A stretch of 24,687 bases of DNA from a virus (lineage: Duplodnaviria; Heunggongvirae; Uroviricota; Caudoviricetes). Below are positions 524 through 23,886 of the stretch, one piece after another. The number at the start of each line of letters is the position of its first letter. Position 1 is the first letter of the stretch. The DNA lies in the IMG/VR virus record IMGVR_UViG_2711768042_000001, positions 1-24,687 of that record. One strand, 5' to 3'. The notes below the pieces were generated by a model, which did not search any database, was not told where the DNA came from, and saw only the letters and a program-made list of their open reading frames with translations. The position numbers were made by a program, and so were the translations under genes.

Positions 524-797
524 CCTGCAACTTGCCGTCAAAGGTGAATACTTCGATGCCATGATTCGCGGAGAGAAAACGGAAGAGTATCGCCTGTGTA
601 ATAACTACTGGAATAAGCGCCTCGTTAACCGTAAGTATGACCGCCTGATTATCACAAAGGGATATCCGAAGCGTGACGATTCCAGTCGCAGAATAGACGT
701 CCCGTATGAAGGGTATGAAATCAAGACAATCACACATCCGCACTTCGGAGATAAACCGGTAAAGGTGTTCGCGATAAAGGTGAATATTGATGGCTAA
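516..797 (+). CDS. ASCH-domain (PUA-like fold) protein
   Basis: GTG start at 516 preceded by AAGGAGGAAGG (503-513). Protein contains GEKTEEYR, matching the ASCH GxKxxExR signature. 8-nt overlap with upstream gene. Confidence 0.6.
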   Translation: MANLQLAVKGEYFDAMIRGEKTEEYRLCNNYWNKRLVNRKYDRLIITKGYPKRDDSSRRIDVPYEGYEIKTITHPHFGDKPVKVFAIKVNIDG

Positions 798-1128
798 ATC
801 AGCAGCAGAGCGCAAAGCCGCTCAGAGAGCCAGACAAGCTGCATCTGGTGTGCGTAAGCTGGAAATTGTGCTTGATGCTCAGGAAATTGAAATGCTGGAG
901 CGTAACTGTGCCACGCGTCGCCCCGGGCGTGCGCCTTACGAATTTGGTGAGTATATAGCGTTACTGATCCGCCAGGATGATGCACGCGTGCACGGGCGTA
1001 TAAAATCGATCAGCAGAAAACGTTGCGGTAAGTGCGGCGAGAGAGTTCCTGTGAATTCATGCCCGTGTGATGGTGACTCGCAATGCTGGGTGACTAAAGG
1101 CTGGCATGAAACGAAATTAATAGTGTGA
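790..1128 (+). CDS. hypothetical protein with C-terminal Cys-rich zinc-ribbon-like motif
   Basis: ATG at 790 (track start 787 is TTG) directly follows the previous stop; C-terminus CGKCGERVPVNSCPCDGDSQC. The stop TGA lies inside the palindrome GTGACATGTCAC. Confidence 0.5.
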   Translation: MAKSAAERKAAQRARQAASGVRKLEIVLDAQEIEMLERNCATRRPGRAPYEFGEYIALLIRQDDARVHGRIKSISRKRCGKCGERVPVNSCPCDGDSQCWVTKGWHETKLIV

Positions 1129-1136
1129 CATGTCAC
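1125..1136. repeat. 12-bp perfect palindrome GTGACATGTCAC, copy 1 of 3
   Basis: Exact string read in the sequence; identical copies at 3390-3401 and 21581-21592, all at gene-module junctions. Confidence 0.9.
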
Positions 1137-1168: not shown

Positions 1169-1843
1169 TTGAATACTGCCGCCAACTATGGCGGCTTTAT
1201 TTTGCATGATACTATTACCACAACGGTAACTATTACCACGGTGGTTATGATGCCTGCTGAACCTAAAGCCTATAAACGCAAATCAACGCAATTTAAGCCA
1301 CTAACAGCAATGCAGGAGGCTTATTGCCAGTCATACATCAAAACGCCTGAAAACCAGACTCAGGCAGCGATTAATGCAGGATTCTCCCCAAATACAGCGG
1401 CAGTTAAAGCCAGTGTCATGATGCGCGATGAACGCATTCAAAAACGGATTGCCGAGTTGATGGAGGAGCGCAACAAACGAATGCGCGTCAGTGCTGATTA
1501 CGTTCTCATGCGCCTGGTGGAGATCGACCAGATGGACGTGATCGACATCCTCAACGACGATGGGAGCCTTAAGCCAATCCGCGAGTGGCCGAAAATCTGG
1601 CGCACTACGCTTAGCGGCTTTGATCTGTCATCGACCATCATGAACATGAACGAGGATTCGATAGAGACAATCCTCAAAAAAATTAAATGGCCTGACAAGG
1701 TGAAGAACCTCGAACTGATTGGTAAGCACGTCGACGTCAACGCATTCAAAGAACGCCTGGATGTTAATGTGAATGTGACAATTGCTGATCGCATAGCAGC
1801 AGCCAGGAAGCGACTCAAAGAACGTCAGGATGGTAATCAGTGA
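1169..1843 (+). CDS. terminase small subunit (Terminase_2/P27-like)
   Basis: Sits immediately upstream of the large terminase with overlapping stop/start; region AMQEAYCQSYIKTPENQTQAAINAGFSPNTAAVKASVMMRDERIQKRIAEL resembles small-terminase DNA-binding domains. True start may be ATG 1247 (MMPAEPK). Confidence 0.6.
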   Translation: MNTAANYGGFILHDTITTTVTITTVVMMPAEPKAYKRKSTQFKPLTAMQEAYCQSYIKTPENQTQAAINAGFSPNTAAVKASVMMRDERIQKRIAELMEERNKRMRVSADYVLMRLVEIDQMDVIDILNDDGSLKPIREWPKIWRTTLSGFDLSSTIMNMNEDSIETILKKIKWPDKVKNLELIGKHVDVNAFKERLDVNVNVTIADRIAAARKRLKERQDGNQ

Positions 1844-3351: not shown

Positions 3352-3385
3352 TGAGGATAAAACAAAGCCAGCTCATCGGCTGGCT
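3352..3385 (-). terminator. intrinsic terminator for the minus-strand moron (hairpin AGCCAGC/GCTGGCT plus T-run on minus strand)
   Basis: 7-bp stem at 3366-3372/3379-3385 with 6-nt loop; minus-strand reading continues TTTGTTTTAT. Only a weak T-run on the plus side. Confidence 0.5.
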
Positions 3386-3389
3386 GTTT

Positions 3390-3401
3390 GTGACATGTCA
3401 C
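3390..3401. repeat. 12-bp perfect palindrome GTGACATGTCAC, copy 2 of 3
   Basis: Exact string between the terL stop region and the moron stop. Confidence 0.9.
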
Positions 3402-3405
3402 GGTG

Positions 3406-3825
3406 TTACTTAATGGCATCAAATCCAGCGTTGATGGCTTCCACAATATTGATGGCACTTGTTTTATCGAAGTGCCCATTCTGAATAAGCGCCGCATGCA
3501 GGCATTGTAACTTCATGTTGTATAAGTGTTCGCTCATGTAATCATTATCACTTTTTGCTTTAGCGTAAACAGCGCGAGAAATATCAAACACATCGCCTTT
3601 TTCCATTTCAGAACGTTGTGCTGTTATCCAGTCATGGAATGTAACGCTAGTACCATGGTCTTCGCTAAGAGTTAACCCGGCCAGTCCCTCACTCTGAATT
3701 ACTTCGTAATGCATTTCATTACCAGCAAAAACGCCATAAAAAACGCAGTCTTCAGCCTGAACGATACGAGAATATTTTAATGGCCATTCATTTAGATACT
3801 TAGCCAACATATCAATTGTTTTCAT
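3406..3825 (-). CDS. moron: hypothetical acidic cytoplasmic protein (139 aa)
   Basis: Only credible ORF on the minus strand here; ATG at 3825 preceded on the minus strand by AAGGTGAGA; bracketed by hairpin/T-run elements on both sides; opposite orientation to the structural genes. Confidence 0.6.
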   Translation of the reverse strand: MKTIDMLAKYLNEWPLKYSRIVQAEDCVFYGVFAGNEMHYEVIQSEGLAGLTLSEDHGTSVTFHDWITAQRSEMEKGDVFDISRAVYAKAKSDNDYMSEHLYNMKLQCLHAALIQNGHFDKTSAINIVEAINAGFDAIK

Positions 3826-4023: not shown

Positions 4024-4100
4024 TGGCGTGGCATGCAGGATTCGAACCTGCGACCAACCGCTTAGAAGGCGGTTGCTCTGTCCAACTGAGCTAATGCCAC
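4024..4100 (-). tRNA. tRNA-Arg (anticodon UCU, decodes AGA), phage-encoded
   Basis: Reverse complement folds as a canonical cloverleaf: acceptor GTGGCAT/ATGCCAC, D-arm GCTC-AGTTGGACA-GAGC, anticodon arm ACCGC-CTTCTAA-GCGGT (anticodon TCT), T-arm GCAGG-TTCGAATC-CTGC, discriminator G and encoded CCA. Differs from E. coli argU as I recall it (from memory, not a comparison). Confidence 0.9.
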
Positions 4101-4748: not shown

Positions 4749-6428
4749 ATGGCGGAAACAACTAAAGAGCGATTGAACAAACAGTTCGCACAACTTGAAA
4801 GCGAGCGTCAGTCGTTCGAGCCGCACTGGCGCGAGTTGAGTGATTACATCAACCCGCGTGGTTCCCGCTTTCTGACTTCTGAGGTTAACCGTAACGATCG
4901 ACGCAATACACGCATTATTGATTCGACCGGGACTATGGCGGCGCGCACTCTTGCCAGCGGCATGATGTCAGGCATAACAAGCCCCGCCCGTCCGTGGTTT
5001 CGCCTGGCTACGCCAGATCCTGAAATGATGGACTATGGCCCTGTTAAGTTGTGGCTTGAGGCAGTTCAGAACCGCATGAACGATATGTTCAATAAGTCGA
5101 ATCTCTACCAGTCTCTTCCGCAGTTATACGGAAGCCTCGGCACATACAGCACTGGTGCAATGGCGGTGCTGGAGGATGACGAGGACATCATTCGCACAAT
5201 GCCATTCCCGATAGGCAGTTACTACCTGGCTAACTCACCTCGTGGCAGTGTGGACACCTGTTTTCGCAAGTTCTCTATGACTGTTCGTCAGCTTGTTCAG
5301 GAGTTCGGGCTAAATAACGTCAGCGAATCCGTAAAAAGCATGTGGGAAAGCGGCACCTACGAGAAGTGGATTGAAGTGATGCATTCGGTTTACCCGAACA
5401 TTGACCGCGATACATCGAAGCTGGATAGCAAGAACAAGCCATTCAAATCGGTTTATTACGAGGTTGGTGGCGATAACGACAAGTTGTTGCGTGAGTCCGG
5501 ATTCGATGAGTTTCCAATTATGGCTCCGCGCTGGGAAGTTAACGGCGAAGATGTTTATGGATCATCATGCCCGGGTATGCTGGCGCTTGGACCTGTTAAG
5601 GCATTGCAGCTTCTCCAGAAGCGCAAGTCGCAGTTGATTGATAAAGCCACCAATCCGCCGATGATTGCTCCGACTTCCCTCAAGAATCAGCGCGCCTCCC
5701 TTCTTCCTGGCGACATCACGTATATCGATCAGATTACTGGTCAGGATGGTTTCAGGCCTGCTTATCTGGTTAACCCCAGTACAGCAGATCTGGTGGCAGA
5801 CATTCAGGACACTCGTCAAATCATTAACAGTGCCTACTTTGTCGATCTGTTCATGATGTTGCAGAACATCAATACCCGTTCGATGCCTGTTGAAGCGGTG
5901 ATCGAAATGAAAGAAGAAAAACTTCTGATGTTGGGGCCGGTTCTGGAGCGTCTGAACGACGAATGTCTTAATCCTCTCATTGACCGCGCTTTCTCGATGA
6001 TGGTGCGTAAAAACATGCTGCCGCCCCCGCCTGACGCGATGGAAGGTATGCCCCTGAAGGTCGAATACATTTCCGTCATGGCTCAGGCGCAGAAGTCTAT
6101 CGGCCTGTCCAGTCTGGCGTCCACGGTTAACTTCATTGGTCAACTTGCGCAAGCGAAACCAGAAGCTCTCGACAAACTCAACGTTGATCAGGCAATCGAT
6201 GCATTCGCTGATATGTCCGGAGTGTCTCCAACCGTCATTGTTCCGCAGGAACAGGTTGAGCAGGCTCGCCAGCAACGGGCACAGCAGCAACAGCAGCAAC
6301 AAATGATGGCGATGGGGATGGCGGCGGCACAGGGTGCCAAGACGCTAAGCGAAGCTAAAACTTCGGATCCGAGTGTTTTGTCAGCTATGGCGAATGCAGT
6401 TAGTGGTCAGGGTGGGCAATCACAATGA
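4749..6428 (+). CDS. portal (head-to-tail connector) protein, T7 gp8-like
   Basis: 559 aa, follows terminase; Gln/Ala/Met-rich C-terminus (QQRAQQQQQQQMMAMGMAAAQGAKT...) resembles the characteristic C-terminus of T7-type connector proteins; RBS GGAG upstream. Confidence 0.8.
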   Translation: MAETTKERLNKQFAQLESERQSFEPHWRELSDYINPRGSRFLTSEVNRNDRRNTRIIDSTGTMAARTLASGMMSGITSPARPWFRLATPDPEMMDYGPVKLWLEAVQNRMNDMFNKSNLYQSLPQLYGSLGTYSTGAMAVLEDDEDIIRTMPFPIGSYYLANSPRGSVDTCFRKFSMTVRQLVQEFGLNNVSESVKSMWESGTYEKWIEVMHSVYPNIDRDTSKLDSKNKPFKSVYYEVGGDNDKLLRESGFDEFPIMAPRWEVNGEDVYGSSCPGMLALGPVKALQLLQKRKSQLIDKATNPPMIAPTSLKNQRASLLPGDITYIDQITGQDGFRPAYLVNPSTADLVADIQDTRQIINSAYFVDLFMMLQNINTRSMPVEAVIEMKEEKLLMLGPVLERLNDECLNPLIDRAFSMMVRKNMLPPPPDAMEGMPLKVEYISVMAQAQKSIGLSSLASTVNFIGQLAQAKPEALDKLNVDQAIDAFADMSGVSPTVIVPQEQVEQARQQRAQQQQQQQMMAMGMAAAQGAKTLSEAKTSDPSVLSAMANAVSGQGGQSQ

Positions 6429-6721
6429 CAGATTACGAAGACGATCAACTGAAAGAAGAAAACGCCCGTAAGCAACGTGACATGGCACAGCGTGAAATTG
6501 ATGACATTCGCTTTGTCATGAGCAGTGAACAGGGGCGTCGCGTTGTCTGGTCGGTGCTGGAGAAAGGCCGTGTGTTTTCTGCTATCTCACCGATGGACGC
6601 TATGGCTATGGCATTTAATGAGGGGCAACGCAATCTGGCGCTGGAACTGTTTCAGCGCGTTATGGCGCATTGCCCTGAACAGTATTTGAAGATGGCCAAA
6701 GAGGCCAGTGAACAGGAGTGA
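6425..6721 (+). CDS. hypothetical protein (98 aa) between portal and scaffold
   Basis: ATG 6425 overlaps the portal stop (ATGA); stop overlaps the region just before the next start. Confidence 0.5.
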   Translation: MTDYEDDQLKEENARKQRDMAQREIDDIRFVMSSEQGRRVVWSVLEKGRVFSAISPMDAMAMAFNEGQRNLALELFQRVMAHCPEQYLKMAKEASEQE

Positions 6722-19445: not shown

Positions 19446-19466
19446 TCAATATTTATTGGAGTTCTT

Positions 19467-19994
19467 TCAATGGCTGTTTATGGCTTCTAAAGAAGCTTCT
19501 GCACTTATCGGCAAAGCAATAGTATCCTTGTTAGATGTGCTATTGCTTTCCAGAACTATGGAAATCCAATCCTCTTGGTTTTCATTAATTGTGCTGACAG
19601 CCATGATAGCATTCAAATCATTTTTATATATTTCTGATCGAATAAGACCTTTCCTGAATAATTTAGTTAAGTTTTCAGCTATCGACATCGCACGAATGCT
19701 AACTTTACTAAGCTCAATTGCGTCACTACCTGCGACTTTGGCGTGTTGAGAAAGAGCCATCAAAGCTATATGTGAAAATGTTTCTTCTTTTGAAAAACCG
19801 TTACTTAAAGACATGAGTGATACACCAGCTCCGTATGGAGTGAGTTTATATCCTGATACATTCAGTGCATGCTCTACAAAGGTAAGATCATCAGTTGTAG
19901 AAACATGCATATCGTTACTTTTTTGTTTTTTTGCAATAAATAAAAAAACAAAATTAATAATCACGATGCCGACGATGATTAAGAAAACTTCCAT
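19467..19994 (-). CDS. membrane-anchored accessory protein (single N-terminal TM); superinfection-exclusion candidate by position
   Basis: ATG 19994 with GAGG 7 nt upstream; N-terminus EVFLIIVGIVIINFVFLFIA is one TM helix; AT-rich; sits directly after the injection gene on the opposite strand, where P22 carries sieA. Confidence 0.6.
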   Translation of the reverse strand: MEVFLIIVGIVIINFVFLFIAKKQKSNDMHVSTTDDLTFVEHALNVSGYKLTPYGAGVSLMSLSNGFSKEETFSHIALMALSQHAKVAGSDAIELSKVSIRAMSIAENLTKLFRKGLIRSEIYKNDLNAIMAVSTINENQEDWISIVLESNSTSNKDTIALPISAEASLEAINSH

Positions 19995-20014
19995 TGCTTT
20001 TCCTCACAATAACA

Positions 20015-20029
20015 TTACCTTAAAGGTAA
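20015..20029. promoter_or_regulatory. palindromic motif TTACC-TTAAA-GGTAA, site 2 of 6
   Basis: Exact string 20-35 nt upstream of the 19994 start on the minus strand. Confidence 0.4.
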
Positions 20030-20054
20030 TATTTTGTGCTAATGTGATCAAGTG

Positions 20055-20453
20055 TTAAGTGTATACCTCCTGTTGCTCAGTGGTGATTTTACCCGGCAAC
20101 ACCTTTTTAGCTTTGTGCGGGTTAACCACATGGCCTTTAGTCCAGTACTCGTAGAGCACATCGTCACACTCTTCCTGATACTGGATTACCTTGTCGCGGA
20201 TTTCAGGGCGGACTTTGTTAGGGCTGATGCTGTTCAACCAAGCTGCCAATTTTCGTAAAGCCATACAAATCATGGCTTGCACCCCACCGGCAGAAGGTAT
20301 GGTGATTTCCACCATACCCTTCGAGAAGCGTTGAGAAATCTTCTTATGTTGAGATTTCCAGTCTAGCCCCATTCCCTCAACGATAGGTTTCATTGGGGTA
20401 TACGGTTCGCCGTTGTGATTGACAACATAAAGCTCTGCGCCGTGGAATGGCAC
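20055..20453 (-). CDS. antirepressor N-terminal-domain-like protein (P22_AR_N-like), possibly truncated
   Basis: N-terminus FHGAELYVVNHNGEPYTPMKPIVEGMGLDWKSQ...VIQYQEECDDVLYEYWTKG has the style of P22-antirepressor N-domains (from memory). Starts with GTG, no clear SD, only 132 aa, so may be a remnant. Confidence 0.45.
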   Translation of the reverse strand: MPFHGAELYVVNHNGEPYTPMKPIVEGMGLDWKSQHKKISQRFSKGMVEITIPSAGGVQAMICMALRKLAAWLNSISPNKVRPEIRDKVIQYQEECDDVLYEYWTKGHVVNPHKAKKVLPGKITTEQQEVYT

Positions 20454-20590
20454 GTTGATAGTAGTGACAAATTTGAAACATCGCTGGTTGTAAGCCAGCA
20501 GATGCTCGTTATTTTACGTCGCGGCACAATTTCTCGCTGCTGGCTCTTTTACACACATTAACCAAATATGGTTGATTTTAATATTTATAC

Positions 20591-20886
20591 GCGCTTATCA
20601 TTACCTTTGCGGTAAATTTACATTGCATTCCTCTTGTGCCATAGTAATCGGGCACTGGCAAAATCCAGTGTCGGGATTGGTCTCCCGGATTACTAAGTGG
20701 CGCATACCACGCCAGACGTGGTTTTTTTATGCGTATAGCACAGTCATGCCAGAATTATGGTGGGCTGAATGGGGGTCCGAAAGGACGCCGGTACCACTTA
20801 GGCCGGTAAGACCAACTCCGTTCAGTTCACCACCATCTGATTGGTCTCAGCGGTGGTGATGTAATTCGCTAAGTGGAGACGCCATC
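20591..20886 (+). promoter_or_regulatory. structured ~295-nt leader upstream of the AntA-like gene (copy 1 of an inverted pair)
   Basis: About 85-90 percent identical to the reverse complement of 23122-23412; contains TTACC-TTTGC-GGTAA (20601-20615), two stem-loops, an intrinsic terminator, then complementary sites AGACCAA (20809-20815) and TTGGTCT (20841-20847) before the RBS GGAG. Confidence 0.7.
20651..20727 (+). ncRNA. candidate C4-like antisense sRNA, copy 1 (SL1 CACUGG-CAAAAU-CCAGUG; SL2 CGGGA-UUGGUC-UCCCG; terminator CCACG-CCAGA-CGUGG then U7)
   Basis: Three consecutive hairpins ending in a U-run, about 77 nt; SL2 loop UUGGUCU is complementary to AGACCAA in the downstream leader. 5' end not determined. 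Confidence 0.45.
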
Positions 20887-21543
20887 ATGAACGCTCAACT
20901 CATCCCCGTATTCAACGGCACTATATCTAACGAAACAGCCCTACTTTGTAATGCCCGCGATCTGCACGCTTTTTTAGGTGTTAAAAAGGTGTTTGCAGCA
21001 TGGATTACAAATCGCATTTCAGAATACGAATTCATTGAAAATCAAGACTATATTTTGCTTTCCAATTTGGGAAAGCAAACATCTGGTAGAGGCGGCCACA
21101 ACCGCAAAGAGTACCACCTCACCCTTGATACAGCCAAAGAGCTGGCGATGGTCGAGCGTAACGAAAAAGGTCGCCAGATACGACGCTACTTCATTGAATG
21201 CGAGAAACGTTTAAGACAACAAGAAACAAAGGTGGAGAAGGTCTTGTCAGGCTTCATGCCAGCCATTATGGAGGCGATCAAGCTGGAAGACAAAAAAGAA
21301 TACAGCGCCCAACTGAAGCCCGGCTACCGCAGCCTGATTCATTCGCCGTCTGGTGTTCTCGGCCTGACGGAGAACTCACTGCTGATGAATTTGCTGAACC
21401 AGTTACAGGAAGACGGGCATGATGTATCGGGCGCGGCAGCGGAGCTGACCACCATGTTCTGCTACATCGTCGGTGTGAGCAAATGCCTGCGTGATATCCA
21501 GACGCACGCGGAGTACATCAACGACAAGGCAGGGTTCTTCTGA
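20887..21543 (+). CDS. antirepressor, AntA-type N-domain plus shared C-terminal domain
   Basis: ATG with GGAG 8 nt upstream; N-domain ...[16 protein letters not shown]...[30 protein letters not shown] matches the AntA pattern; the C-terminal 80 aa are near-identical to the C-terminus of the 22435..23121 gene. Confidence 0.75.
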
Positions 21544-21568
21544 CGAGCGGCGGCACAGGGATGTGCAA
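21301..21568. repeat. inverted repeat arm A (antirepressor C-domain coding plus 25 bp of 3' flank)
   Basis: About 94 percent identical to the reverse complement of 22410-22677. Confidence 0.8.
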
Positions 21569-21580
21569 AACGGAACTATC

Positions 21581-21592
21581 GTGACATGTCAC
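21581..21592. repeat. 12-bp perfect palindrome GTGACATGTCAC, copy 3 of 3
   Basis: Exact string between the antA stop and its terminator. Confidence 0.9.
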
Positions 21593-21593
21593 A

Positions 21594-21617
21594 GGCCGCT
21601 TTCGCGGCCTTGTTTTT
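21594..21617 (+). terminator. rho-independent terminator (GGCCGC-UUUC-GCGGCC then TTGTTTTT)
   Basis: 6-bp GC stem with tetraloop and T-run directly after the AntA-like gene. Confidence 0.7.
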
Positions 21618-21654
21618 AACGAATGCCACCGCCACCCGGGCGGGAATCCGCAGA

Positions 21655-23730: not shown

Positions 23731-23767
23731 GCAAATAATTTGTTTGCTATCCAGCACGTTTTGCAAA

Positions 23768-23782
23768 TTACCTGAAAGGTAA
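23768..23782. promoter_or_regulatory. palindromic motif TTACC-TGAAA-GGTAA, site 6 of 6
   Basis: Exact string, identical core to site 1 (4423-4437). Confidence 0.4.
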
Positions 23783-23886
23783 TATCTATTCGTATTTACA
23801 GTCTTTCTATCCATATGTGGTTTTCCAGGTAATAGAATAACCAGATATGCGGCGCAACGGGTGCTGCGACTATCTGGAGATTTAAC

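What the first reader, a model, noticed from the sequence alone, without database searches (positions are those of the whole stretch)
1125..1136. Perfect 12-bp palindrome GTGACATGTCAC repeated three times at module junctions
Copies at 1125-1136 (overlapping the stop of the gene before terS), 3390-3401 (between terL and the moron, next to a hairpin) and 21581-21592 (between the antA stop and its terminator). A specific 12-mer is expected about 0.001 times by chance in a window this size, so three exact copies is non-random. All are at 3' ends of genes or operon boundaries, which suggests a protein-binding site used in termination/antitermination, a recombination or boundary sequence for module exchange, or a nuclease or methylase target.
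Basis: seen in the sequence. Interest (0 to 1): 0.6.

Follow-up and report, generated by a model that had tools for sequence, protein, structure and literature searches.

The report
Conserved phage palindrome at operon ends
The 12-bp palindrome is real and strongly conserved. It is a dyad-symmetric DNA site (GTGAC-N2-GTCAC) found in every genome examined that carries one small, uncharacterised phage DNA-binding protein, so it is most likely that protein's binding site, placed at gene and operon ends.

Summary
Three exact copies of GTGACATGTCAC are present at the stated coordinates, against about 0.0015 expected by chance. The window is the late region of a phiV10/epsilon15-like podophage.

The same 12-mer sits at the same three junctions in epsilon15, PAS61, Tyrion and phiV10, although the flanks have diverged. 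The general form is GTGAC-N2-GTCAC. Nine complete phage genomes of five unrelated types carry 25 sites where 0.35 are expected. Lambda, P2, P22 and Sf6 carry none.

The only epsilon15 ORF with homologs in all four other phage types is the 112-aa gene whose stop codon lies inside copy 1 (epsilon15 gp49 / N15 gp46 family). In 86 of 144 distinct homolog gene ends the site starts on the last sense base, using eight different NNG codons followed by TGA. The protein models confidently as an N-terminal basic helix, a ribbon-helix-helix and a zinc ribbon.

Best reading: a binding site for this dimeric protein, marking operon and cargo boundaries next to terminators. Binding and its effect on transcription are inferred, not shown. 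The spacing excludes host matS, and a stable RNA hairpin is not supported. No paper in the library holds the motif.

The parts
1125..1136 (.). Copy 1 of GTGACATGTCAC. Its first G is the last base of the final Val codon of the 112-aa gene, and bases 2-4 are that gene's TGA stop.
   Evidence: The same arrangement holds in 86 of 144 distinct homolog gene ends, with 8 different NNG last codons. It is conserved in epsilon15, PAS61, Tyrion, BUCT711, N15 and phiKO2.
790..1128 (+). Gene for the 112-aa epsilon15 gp49 / phiV10 p55 / N15 gp46-family protein (phrog_536), the predicted binder. It has an N-terminal Arg-rich helix, a ribbon-helix-helix and a C-terminal Cys4 zinc ribbon.
1178..1203 (+). Intrinsic terminator (stem 1178-1195 plus T tract) 41 nt downstream of copy 1. 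It ends the early-right operon before terS.
3390..3401 (.). Copy 2. It lies 4 nt from the hairpin that follows terL and 4 nt from the stop of the minus-strand cargo gene 3406..3825.
   Evidence: It is a mosaic junction. In E. coli prophage relatives it is exact in most, has one mismatch in about 11, and is absent in some.
3366..3385 (-). Hairpin between terL and copy 2. It scores as a terminator on the minus strand (T tract TTGTTTT) and also folds on the + strand, where the T tract is weak.
21581..21592 (.). Copy 3. It lies 37 nt after the antA stop and abuts the terminator at the end of the rightward block.
   Evidence: The motif plus terminator is homologous to phiV10 19492-19550, but the DNA to its left is different.
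21593..21618 (+). Intrinsic terminator (stem 21593-21610 plus T tract) directly 3' of copy 3.
6477..6488 (.). One-mismatch near-copy GTGACATGGCAC inside the ORF 6425..6721. It is probably not a functional site.
   Evidence: In relatives it varies with the coding sequence, to GTGACATGGCGC.

Best explanation
GTGACATGTCAC is the local form of a dyad-symmetric DNA site, GTGAC-N2-GTCAC. I propose that it is bound by a dimer of the small phage protein encoded at 790-1128 (epsilon15 gp49 / N15 gp46 family: basic helix, ribbon-helix-helix, zinc ribbon).

The gene and one site form a compact module, with the site lying on the gene's own stop codon. That module has moved between otherwise unrelated temperate phages. 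Each recipient genome has gained one to three further sites at gene and operon ends.

In this phage the three sites mark three boundaries:
- the end of the early-right operon, before terS;
- the terL / cargo junction;
- the end of the structural block.
Each lies within 0-41 nt of an intrinsic terminator.

Inferred mechanism: the protein is made only in lytic growth. Once it occupies these sites, it changes what RNA polymerase does at the adjacent boundary. Two versions are possible. It could act as a roadblock or insulator; at copy 1 this would also limit its own expression, as LacI does at O3. Alternatively it could be handed to the polymerase so that the next terminator is read through.

Shown here: the conservation, the co-occurrence, the stop-codon overlap, the RHH fold and the placement at boundaries. 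Inferred: the binding itself, the direction of the effect on transcription, and any link to the mosaic junctions.
For: 1. Conservation under divergence. The exact 12-mer is at the same three junctions in epsilon15, PAS61 and Tyrion, and at two of them in phiV10 (its copy 1 has one mismatch). BUCT711 keeps copies 1 and 3. Flanks differ throughout.
2. Abundance. Nine complete genomes that carry the gene (366 kb) hold 25 GTGAC-N2-GTCAC sites against 0.35 expected. Lambda, P2, P22 and Sf6 (163 kb, no homolog detected) hold 0.
3. Exclusive partner. The gene is the only epsilon15 ORF with BLASTP homologs in N15, ZF40, Vibrio K308 and Yersinia 42.18, all of which carry the site.
4. Stop-codon overlap. 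In 86 of 144 distinct gene ends the site begins on the last sense base. The last codon is GTG, CTG, ATG, CCG, TTG, GCG, ACG or TCG, always followed by TGA. The amino acid is free but the G is fixed. N15 and phiKO2 do the same with GTGACTGGTCAC.
6. Site signature. Invariant half-sites with a variable centre are typical of dimeric DNA binders. The strand residues I infer to face the DNA (positions 23 and 25) are K/E with the AT spacer in the epsilon15-like, L090-, L094-type and ZF40 lineages, and R/D with the CA/TG spacer in two separate lineages, L086 and N15/phiKO2.
7. Reverse sampling. Of 120 viral stretches sampled by a 14-mer containing the motif, 32 carry the gene within a few kb and 49 more match gene-positive phages.
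8. Placement. In 48% of 299 non-identical contexts the site's TGA closes an ORF of at least 60 codons. In 34% a terminator lies within 75 nt.
Against: - No binding experiment exists, and no paper in the library mentions the motif or the protein's function.
- The negative control is only four genomes.
- Many loci are related prophages, so the counts are not independent.
- The order of site and terminator is not uniform. The site is upstream at copies 1 and 3, and downstream on the + strand at copy 2 and in the P2-like clade. Some sites lie inside genes (ZF40, N15 repA, BUCT711) or directly upstream of ribosome-binding sites (K308, N15). No single transcription mechanism fits every case.
- N15, ZF40 and the P2-like phages have their own Q or Ogr, so the protein is not the general late activator.
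- The link between strand residues and spacer is loose. The Yersinia clade uses other residues with an AT spacer, and the Vibrio clade uses GC, AC and CC spacers with one residue set.
- About a third of homologs have no site within 30 nt of their stop.
Confidence: 0.55

Rival explanations
1. The site is bound by a conserved host protein of enterobacteria and vibrios. Examples would be MatP, whose matS site is GTGACRNYGTCAC, or another nucleoid or cell-cycle factor. On this view the phage gene is only a fellow traveller.
For: The half-sites are identical to those of matS (consensus as printed in PMC6907758). The host range of the phages (Enterobacterales, Vibrio) matches that of the MatP/MukBEF/Dam group; this last point is my own knowledge.
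Against: - The spacing is 2 bp, not 3. Nine site-bearing genomes hold no 13-bp matS-type site except one in K308.
- Lambda, P2, P22 and Sf6 infect the same hosts and have no site.
- The site tracks a single phage gene and lies on its stop codon.
- The central dinucleotide differs between phage lineages within the same host group (N15 against phiV10, both E. coli).
Confidence: 0.1
2. The primary role is recombinational. The site would be a shared boundary sequence or a site-specific target at which cargo genes (morons) are swapped in and out.
For: - Copy 2 joins one conserved left flank to at least 7-9 unrelated right flanks, with the break 0-7 nt from the motif.
- At copy 3 homology to phiV10 starts exactly at the motif, and the ant cassette lies on the other side in the opposite orientation.
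- In P2-like phages the gene and the site bracket variable cargo of 0.5-4.5 kb.
Against: - Twelve base pairs is short for homologous exchange.
- No recombinase is shared among the site-bearing phages.
- Copies also lie inside essential genes (ZF40, N15), where no cargo is exchanged.
- A conserved functional site placed at an operon end would become a visible mosaic boundary without causing the exchange.
Confidence: 0.1
3. The element acts in RNA, as a small hairpin (GUGA-CNNG-UCAC) in the 3' UTR or leader. It might work like a nut/boxB site bound by the protein's arginine-rich N-terminus, or as a processing or stability signal.
For: - All copies lie in transcribed regions near stop codons, ribosome-binding sites or terminators.
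- The protein starts with an Arg-rich helix, AERKAAQRARQ.
Against: - The hairpin is worth only -1.2 kcal/mol and is not kept in the context folds of copy 3.
- The stem sequence never covaries. It is invariant, which points to base-specific reading of a duplex.
- The fold matches are double-stranded-DNA-binding RHH proteins.
- With a CA/TG spacer the RNA sequence differs with orientation in N15.
Confidence: 0.07
4. The site is a packaging (pac/cos accessory) or replication signal recognised by terminase or a replication initiator.
For: - Copy 1 lies just upstream of terS.
- In Vibrio K308 a site lies 19 nt before the terS ATG.
- In P2-like phages the site is in the region next to the portal and terminase genes.
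Against: - The terminases and replication proteins of the five phage types are unrelated.
- N15 and ZF40 have no site near cos or terS.
- Three dispersed copies do not fit a single packaging start.
Confidence: 0.03
5. The site is a target of a restriction, modification or homing enzyme.
For: It is a palindrome that contains CATG and ACATGT.
Against: The central bases vary between lineages. There are only 1-4 copies per genome, at fixed junctions. No enzyme is shared.
Confidence: 0.02

Closest known systems
Phage ribbon-helix-helix repressors and their operators (P22 Arc and Mnt; CopG/MetJ class)
   Different: Arc and Mnt operators overlap promoters. Here the sites lie on stop codons, in 3' regions and beside terminators. 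The protein also carries an extra N-terminal basic helix and a C-terminal zinc ribbon. No sequence family match was found.
MatP / matS of E. coli (Ter macrodomain organiser)
   Different: matS has a 3-bp centre (13 bp), whereas this site has 2 bp (12 bp). The four-helix bundle and coiled coil are absent, and there is no profile similarity (probability 0.6%). The protein is phage-encoded.
Lambda Q with its binding element and tR' terminator
   Same: The regulator gene is the last before the late genes. Its DNA site lies just past its end, and a terminator follows within tens of bases (copy 1).
   Different: There is no homology to Q families. The promoter-like match around copy 1 is weak and not conserved (and reading). 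Extra copies lie at operon ends. N15 and ZF40 carry both a Q gene and this module.
LacI bound at O3 at the 3' end of lacI (roadblock that truncates lacI mRNA; Abo et al. 2000, recalled from memory)
   Same: A regulator's binding site lies at the 3' end of its own gene.
   Different: This is an analogy only. Nothing here tests for a roadblock or for tmRNA tagging.
TraR / DksA-type zinc-finger RNA polymerase-binding proteins
   Same: Residues 47-106 (long helix plus zinc ribbon) align weakly with F-plasmid TraR and with YbiI (profile E 0.03; hhalign probability 67%).
   Different: The cysteine spacing differs. The acidic tip residues of TraR are replaced by basic ones. No Pfam zf-dskA_traR hit was found. 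The N-terminal RHH has no counterpart in TraR.

Membership tests
RHH transcription factor with cognate operator | The binder has a ribbon-helix-helix fold. | tested here: met
RHH transcription factor with cognate operator | The DNA site is short, dyad-symmetric and conserved. | tested here: met
   GTGAC-N2-GTCAC occurs 25 times in 9 genomes against 0.35 expected.
RHH transcription factor with cognate operator | The protein physically binds the site. | not testable with these tools
   Only co-occurrence, the stop-codon overlap and the residue-spacer correlation are available.
RHH transcription factor with cognate operator | The site overlaps the promoter it controls. | tested here: not met
   Sites lie at stop codons, next to terminators or inside genes. 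Only a weak promoter-like match (9 of 12) lies at copy 1.
MatP / matS | The site is the 13-bp GTGACRNYGTCAC. | tested here: not met
   All sites have a 2-bp centre. Sites with a 3-bp centre are absent from 8 of 9 genomes and from 108 loci.
MatP / matS | The binder has the MatP architecture: four-helix bundle, RHH and coiled coil. | tested here: not met
   hhalign probability is 0.6% and there is no Pfam MatP hit. Only the RHH core superposes.
Lambda Q-type antitermination | The regulator is homologous to a Q family. | tested here: not met
   No Pfam, NCBIfam or PDB sequence match to Q was found.
Lambda Q-type antitermination | The binding element is embedded in a late promoter and followed by a terminator. 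| tested here: inconclusive
   A terminator lies 41 nt downstream of copy 1. The promoter-like match is weak and is not conserved across clades.
N / nut (boxB) RNA antitermination | A stable RNA hairpin whose stem covaries. | tested here: not met
   The hairpin is worth -1.2 kcal/mol. The stem sequence is invariant in all lineages.
DksA / TraR zinc-finger proteins | A C4 zinc finger with family-level sequence similarity. | tested here: inconclusive
   Profile E is 0.03 against TraR and YbiI. hhalign probability is 67%. There is no Pfam hit, and TraR is not among the fold-search hits.
Boundary sequences at mosaic junctions of temperate phages | A short conserved sequence lies at points where homology between relatives breaks. 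| tested here: met
   Copy 2 has one left-flank family joined to 7 right-flank families, and a second left-flank family joined to 9. At copy 3 homology to phiV10 starts at the motif.

The most novel reading that the evidence does not exclude
The module is a phage-borne counterpart of a chromosome-organising or polymerase-targeting system, in one of two forms.
(a) A MatP-like protein with its own matS-like sites (12 bp rather than 13 bp). It would bridge three points of the phage genome, or keep host SMC complexes such as MukBEF off phage DNA.
(b) A DNA-tethered TraR-like factor. It would be delivered into RNA polymerase as the polymerase crosses the site, switching termination on or off at operon and cargo boundaries.
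Either would be a mechanism not yet described for phages.
Probability: 0.12. Interest if true: 0.85.

Novelty: new variant of a known kind. Interest (0 to 1): 0.62.

Why it matters
If the assignment holds, it defines an unstudied regulatory module: a small RHH and zinc-ribbon protein plus the site GTGAC-N2-GTCAC. The module is shared by epsilon15-like podophages, P2-like myophages, N15-like linear plasmid prophages, ZF40 and Vibrio siphophages.

It would give epsilon15/phiV10-type phages a candidate for the missing control step between early and late transcription, since no Q-type regulator is annotated in the epsilon15 or phiV10 records.

It would explain why variable cargo regions, which include anti-phage and lysogenic-conversion genes, begin at fixed points.

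It would also supply a simple sequence marker for operon and cargo boundaries in prophage annotation.

The near-identity of its half-sites to matS raises a testable question about cross-talk with host chromosome organisation.

Tried and rejected
- **Promoter element.** GTGACA resembles a -35 hexamer. Only copy 1 has a weak -10 partner (9 of 12). Copies 2 and 3 have none, and the match is not conserved across clades.
- **Prophage repressor operator.** The epsilon15 record marks repressor sites, but these are a different motif, ATTACC-N5-GGTAAT.
- **matS.** The spacing is wrong and 13-bp forms are absent.
- **RNA hairpin.** It is too weak and shows no covariation.
- **pac/cos or origin.** Packaging and replication genes are not shared, and site placement is inconsistent across phage types.
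- **phiV10 genome end.** The phiV10 record begins in the middle of the palindrome. This is only because the record was cut after the last gene's stop codon.
- **Family databases.** Pfam, NCBIfam and PDB sequence searches gave no family for the protein. PHROGs gave only the label 'transcriptional regulator'.
- **First structure model.** The model built from 18 close homologs was poor (pLDDT 58). The model built from 58 sequences was good.
- **Literature.** Searches for the motif, five variants of it, and Uetakevirus regulation found nothing relevant.
- **Whole-collection count.** A count of the bare 12-mer across a collection is not possible, because scans need 14 fixed bases.

Full report
**1. 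Observation**

GTGACATGTCAC occurs exactly at 1125-1136, 3390-3401 and 21581-21592. A one-mismatch copy lies at 6477-6488 inside a coding region. A given 12-mer is expected about 0.0015 times in 24.7 kb.
- Copy 1 holds the TGA stop (1126-1128) of a 112-aa gene at 790-1128.
- Copy 2 lies between the hairpin that follows terL (3366-3385) and the stop of the minus-strand gene 3406..3825.
- Copy 3 lies 37 nt after the antA stop and abuts the terminator 21593-21610.

**2. Source**

The window is the late region of a phiV10/epsilon15-like podophage of the genus Uetakevirus. The best E. coli prophage matches are about 97% identical.

**3. Conservation in relatives**

Epsilon15 is about 80% identical in DNA, yet it has exactly three copies, at the stop of gp49, after terL, and at the end of the structural operon before its terminator. 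PAS61 and Tyrion show the same pattern. phiV10 has two exact copies plus a one-mismatch copy 1. Klebsiella phage BUCT711 keeps copies 1 and 3. The flanks differ between these phages while the 12-mer does not.

In 80 prophage loci spanning 10 kb on each side of the gene (1.38 Mb), the motif occurs only at the gene's stop and after terL. Copy 1 is intact in nearly all of them. Copy 2 has a single mismatch in about 11 and is missing in some.

**4. General form and partner gene**

Homologs of the 112-aa protein occur in several phage types: N15-like linear plasmid prophages, Pectobacterium phage ZF40, P2-like Yersinia phages, and Vibrio and Aeromonas phages. Site counts in complete genomes are:

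| Phage | Sites | Notes |
|---|---|---|
| N15 | 3 | GTGACCAGTCAC / GTGACTGGTCAC; one overlaps the stop of gene 46, the homolog |
| ZF40 | 3 | GTGACATGTCAC; one lies 2 nt after the homolog's stop |
| Vibrio K308 | 3 | spacers GC, AC, AC |
| Yersinia 42.18 | 1 | plus a degenerate neighbour 33 bp away |

The consensus is therefore GTGAC-N2-GTCAC. Nine complete genomes with the gene hold 25 such sites against 0.35 expected. Lambda, P2, P22 and Sf6 hold none; the first three gave no hit to the family profile, and none of the four appears in the listed part of the homolog search (counts).

The gene is the only epsilon15 ORF with BLASTP homologs in all four of the other phage types.

The reverse test agrees. 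Of 120 viral stretches picked by the 14-mer TGTGACATGTCACA, 32 carry the gene within a few kb. A further 49 match gene-positive phages elsewhere in their genomes. The remainder include sequences of very different G+C content, as chance hits in a large collection would.

**5. Stop-codon overlap**

Among 144 distinct gene ends of the family, 86 have the site starting on the last sense base. The last codon is GTG, CTG, ATG, CCG, TTG, GCG, ACG or TCG, and the stop is always TGA. The amino acid is free but the G is fixed, so selection acts on the DNA. Six more ends have the site 2-4 nt past the stop. Fifty-two have none within 30 nt, and many of these phages carry sites elsewhere in the locus.

**6. 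The protein**

It has no Pfam or NCBIfam family. PHROGs labels it a transcriptional regulator. With a 58-sequence alignment, AlphaFold gives pLDDT 91 and the following elements:
- a basic helix at 5-19;
- a short strand;
- helices at 30-42 and 52-75;
- a Cys-rich ribbon at 79-99;
- a last helix.

RHH proteins bind as dimers to dyad sites, which fits invariant half-sites with a variable centre. I infer that strand positions 23 and 25 face the DNA. They are K and E wherever the stop-overlapping site has an AT centre (151 sequences, several clades). They are R and D in the two separate lineages with a CA/TG centre, L086 and N15/phiKO2. The rule is not strict. The Yersinia clade uses other residues with an AT centre, and the Vibrio clade shows GC, AC and CC centres with a single residue set.

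**7. Placement**

In 299 non-identical contexts, the site's TGA closes an ORF of at least 60 codons in 48%. A terminator lies within 75 nt in 34%. In this window each copy is 0-41 nt from a terminator hairpin.

The order of site and terminator is not uniform:
- Copies 1 and 3 precede the terminator on the + strand.
- Copy 2 precedes it only on the minus strand.
- In the P2-like clade the terminator comes first.

Other sites lie in different settings: inside genes (ZF40, N15 repA), directly before ribosome-binding sites (N15, K308), or with their central ATG apparently serving as a start codon (L087-type loci).

**8. Mosaic junctions**

At copy 2, one conserved left flank is joined to seven unrelated right flanks. 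A second left-flank family is joined to nine. At copy 3, homology to phiV10 begins at the motif, and the ant cassette lies on the opposite side in the opposite orientation. In P2-like phages the gene and the site bracket 0.5-4.5 kb of variable cargo. Whether the site causes the exchange is open.

**9. Rivals**

- Host MatP is made unlikely by the spacing (matS has a 3-bp centre, PMC6907758), by the absence of 13-bp forms, and by the four control phages.
- An RNA hairpin is weak (-1.2 kcal/mol) and shows no covariation.
- Packaging and replication signals fail because those genes are unrelated across the five phage types.
- The prophage repressor's operators are a different motif.

**10. Mechanism**

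The best-supported statement is that this is the binding site of the RHH and zinc-ribbon protein, placed at operon and cargo boundaries. What binding achieves is inferred. Two options fit parts of the data:
- A roadblock or insulator. At copy 1 this would also limit the protein's own synthesis.
- A factor loaded onto RNA polymerase so that it reads through the next terminator. This would suit a gene that is last in the early operon and sits just before a terminator and terS.

N15, ZF40 and the P2-like phages have their own Q or Ogr, so the protein is not a universal late activator.

**11. Novelty**

No paper in the searchable library holds the motif or any of five variants, and none describes the protein's function. 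The kind, an RHH protein with a dyad site, is well known. The family, the site, its placement on stop codons and beside terminators, and its spread across unrelated phages are not described.

**12. Limits**

There is no binding data. The negative control is small. Many loci are related to one another. The viral stretches are truncated. Host chromosomes could not be scanned for a 12-mer.

Noticed in passing
window 1169-1260: The terS start as listed (TTG 1169, also used in the phiV10 record) is probably too far upstream. A terminator (1178-1195) and a repressor-operator-like site ATTACCACAACGGTAAC (1214-1230) lie inside that ORF. An SD (GGTGG) plus ATG sit at 1248/1251, which matches the epsilon15 terS start.
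   Followed up: partly
window 20014-20030 and 23767-23783: There are two exact copies of ATTACC-N5-GGTAAT, the motif annotated as prophage repressor operators in the epsilon15 record. Zero are expected in shuffles. They lie in the ant / Bro-N region.
   Followed up: partly
window 4024-4100 (minus strand): A tRNA-Arg (anticodon TCT) gene lies between the cargo gene next to copy 2 and the head genes. It is also annotated in related prophages.
   Followed up: no
window 19450-21560, compared with L001 (phiV10) 19540-20520: The antirepressor cassette lies to the left of copy 3 on the + strand in the window. In phiV10 and Tyrion it lies to the right of the terminator on the minus strand. This is a rearrangement with one end at the motif.
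   Followed up: partly
L194 (Yersinia phage vB_YenM_42.18) 11660-11760, and loci L157-L193: In P2-like phages a terminator is followed by GTGACATGGCAC, then GTGACATGTCAC 33 bp later, then a TGTGAC half-site about 32 bp further on. This is an array phased by three helical turns. Variable cargo sits between the homolog gene and the array, including an 873-aa protein annotated in the record as Smc chromosome-partition protein.
   Followed up: partly
L089, L096, L101 and related Klebsiella-type loci, 8-60 nt after the motif at the homolog's stop: The site is followed by a strong promoter (TTGACT, 17 nt, TATACT) overlapped by a LexA-box-like sequence (CTGT-N8-ACAG). This suggests an SOS-controlled gene inserted between the regulator gene and terS.
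   Followed up: no
L086, L087, L090, L125 and related loci, 6.6-9.9 kb upstream of the homolog gene: The central ATG of the palindrome appears to be the start codon of a conserved minus-strand ORF (MS[RQ]..P[ED]..Y). The same 12 bp can therefore supply a stop codon in one place and a start codon in another.
   Followed up: no
L087 15501-16130: In another podophage type (T7-like portal, Bbp19-like protein), two sites lie about 0.6 kb apart just upstream of the major capsid gene. One lies on the stop codon of a 282-aa gene. The other lies 5 nt before a terminator.
   Followed up: partly
window 1073-1093: Two extra GTGAC half-sites, 16 bp apart, lie in the codons for the conserved C-terminal CDGDSQCWVT motif of the regulator gene, 52 and 36 nt upstream of copy 1. 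I did not check whether they are conserved at the DNA level.
   Followed up: no
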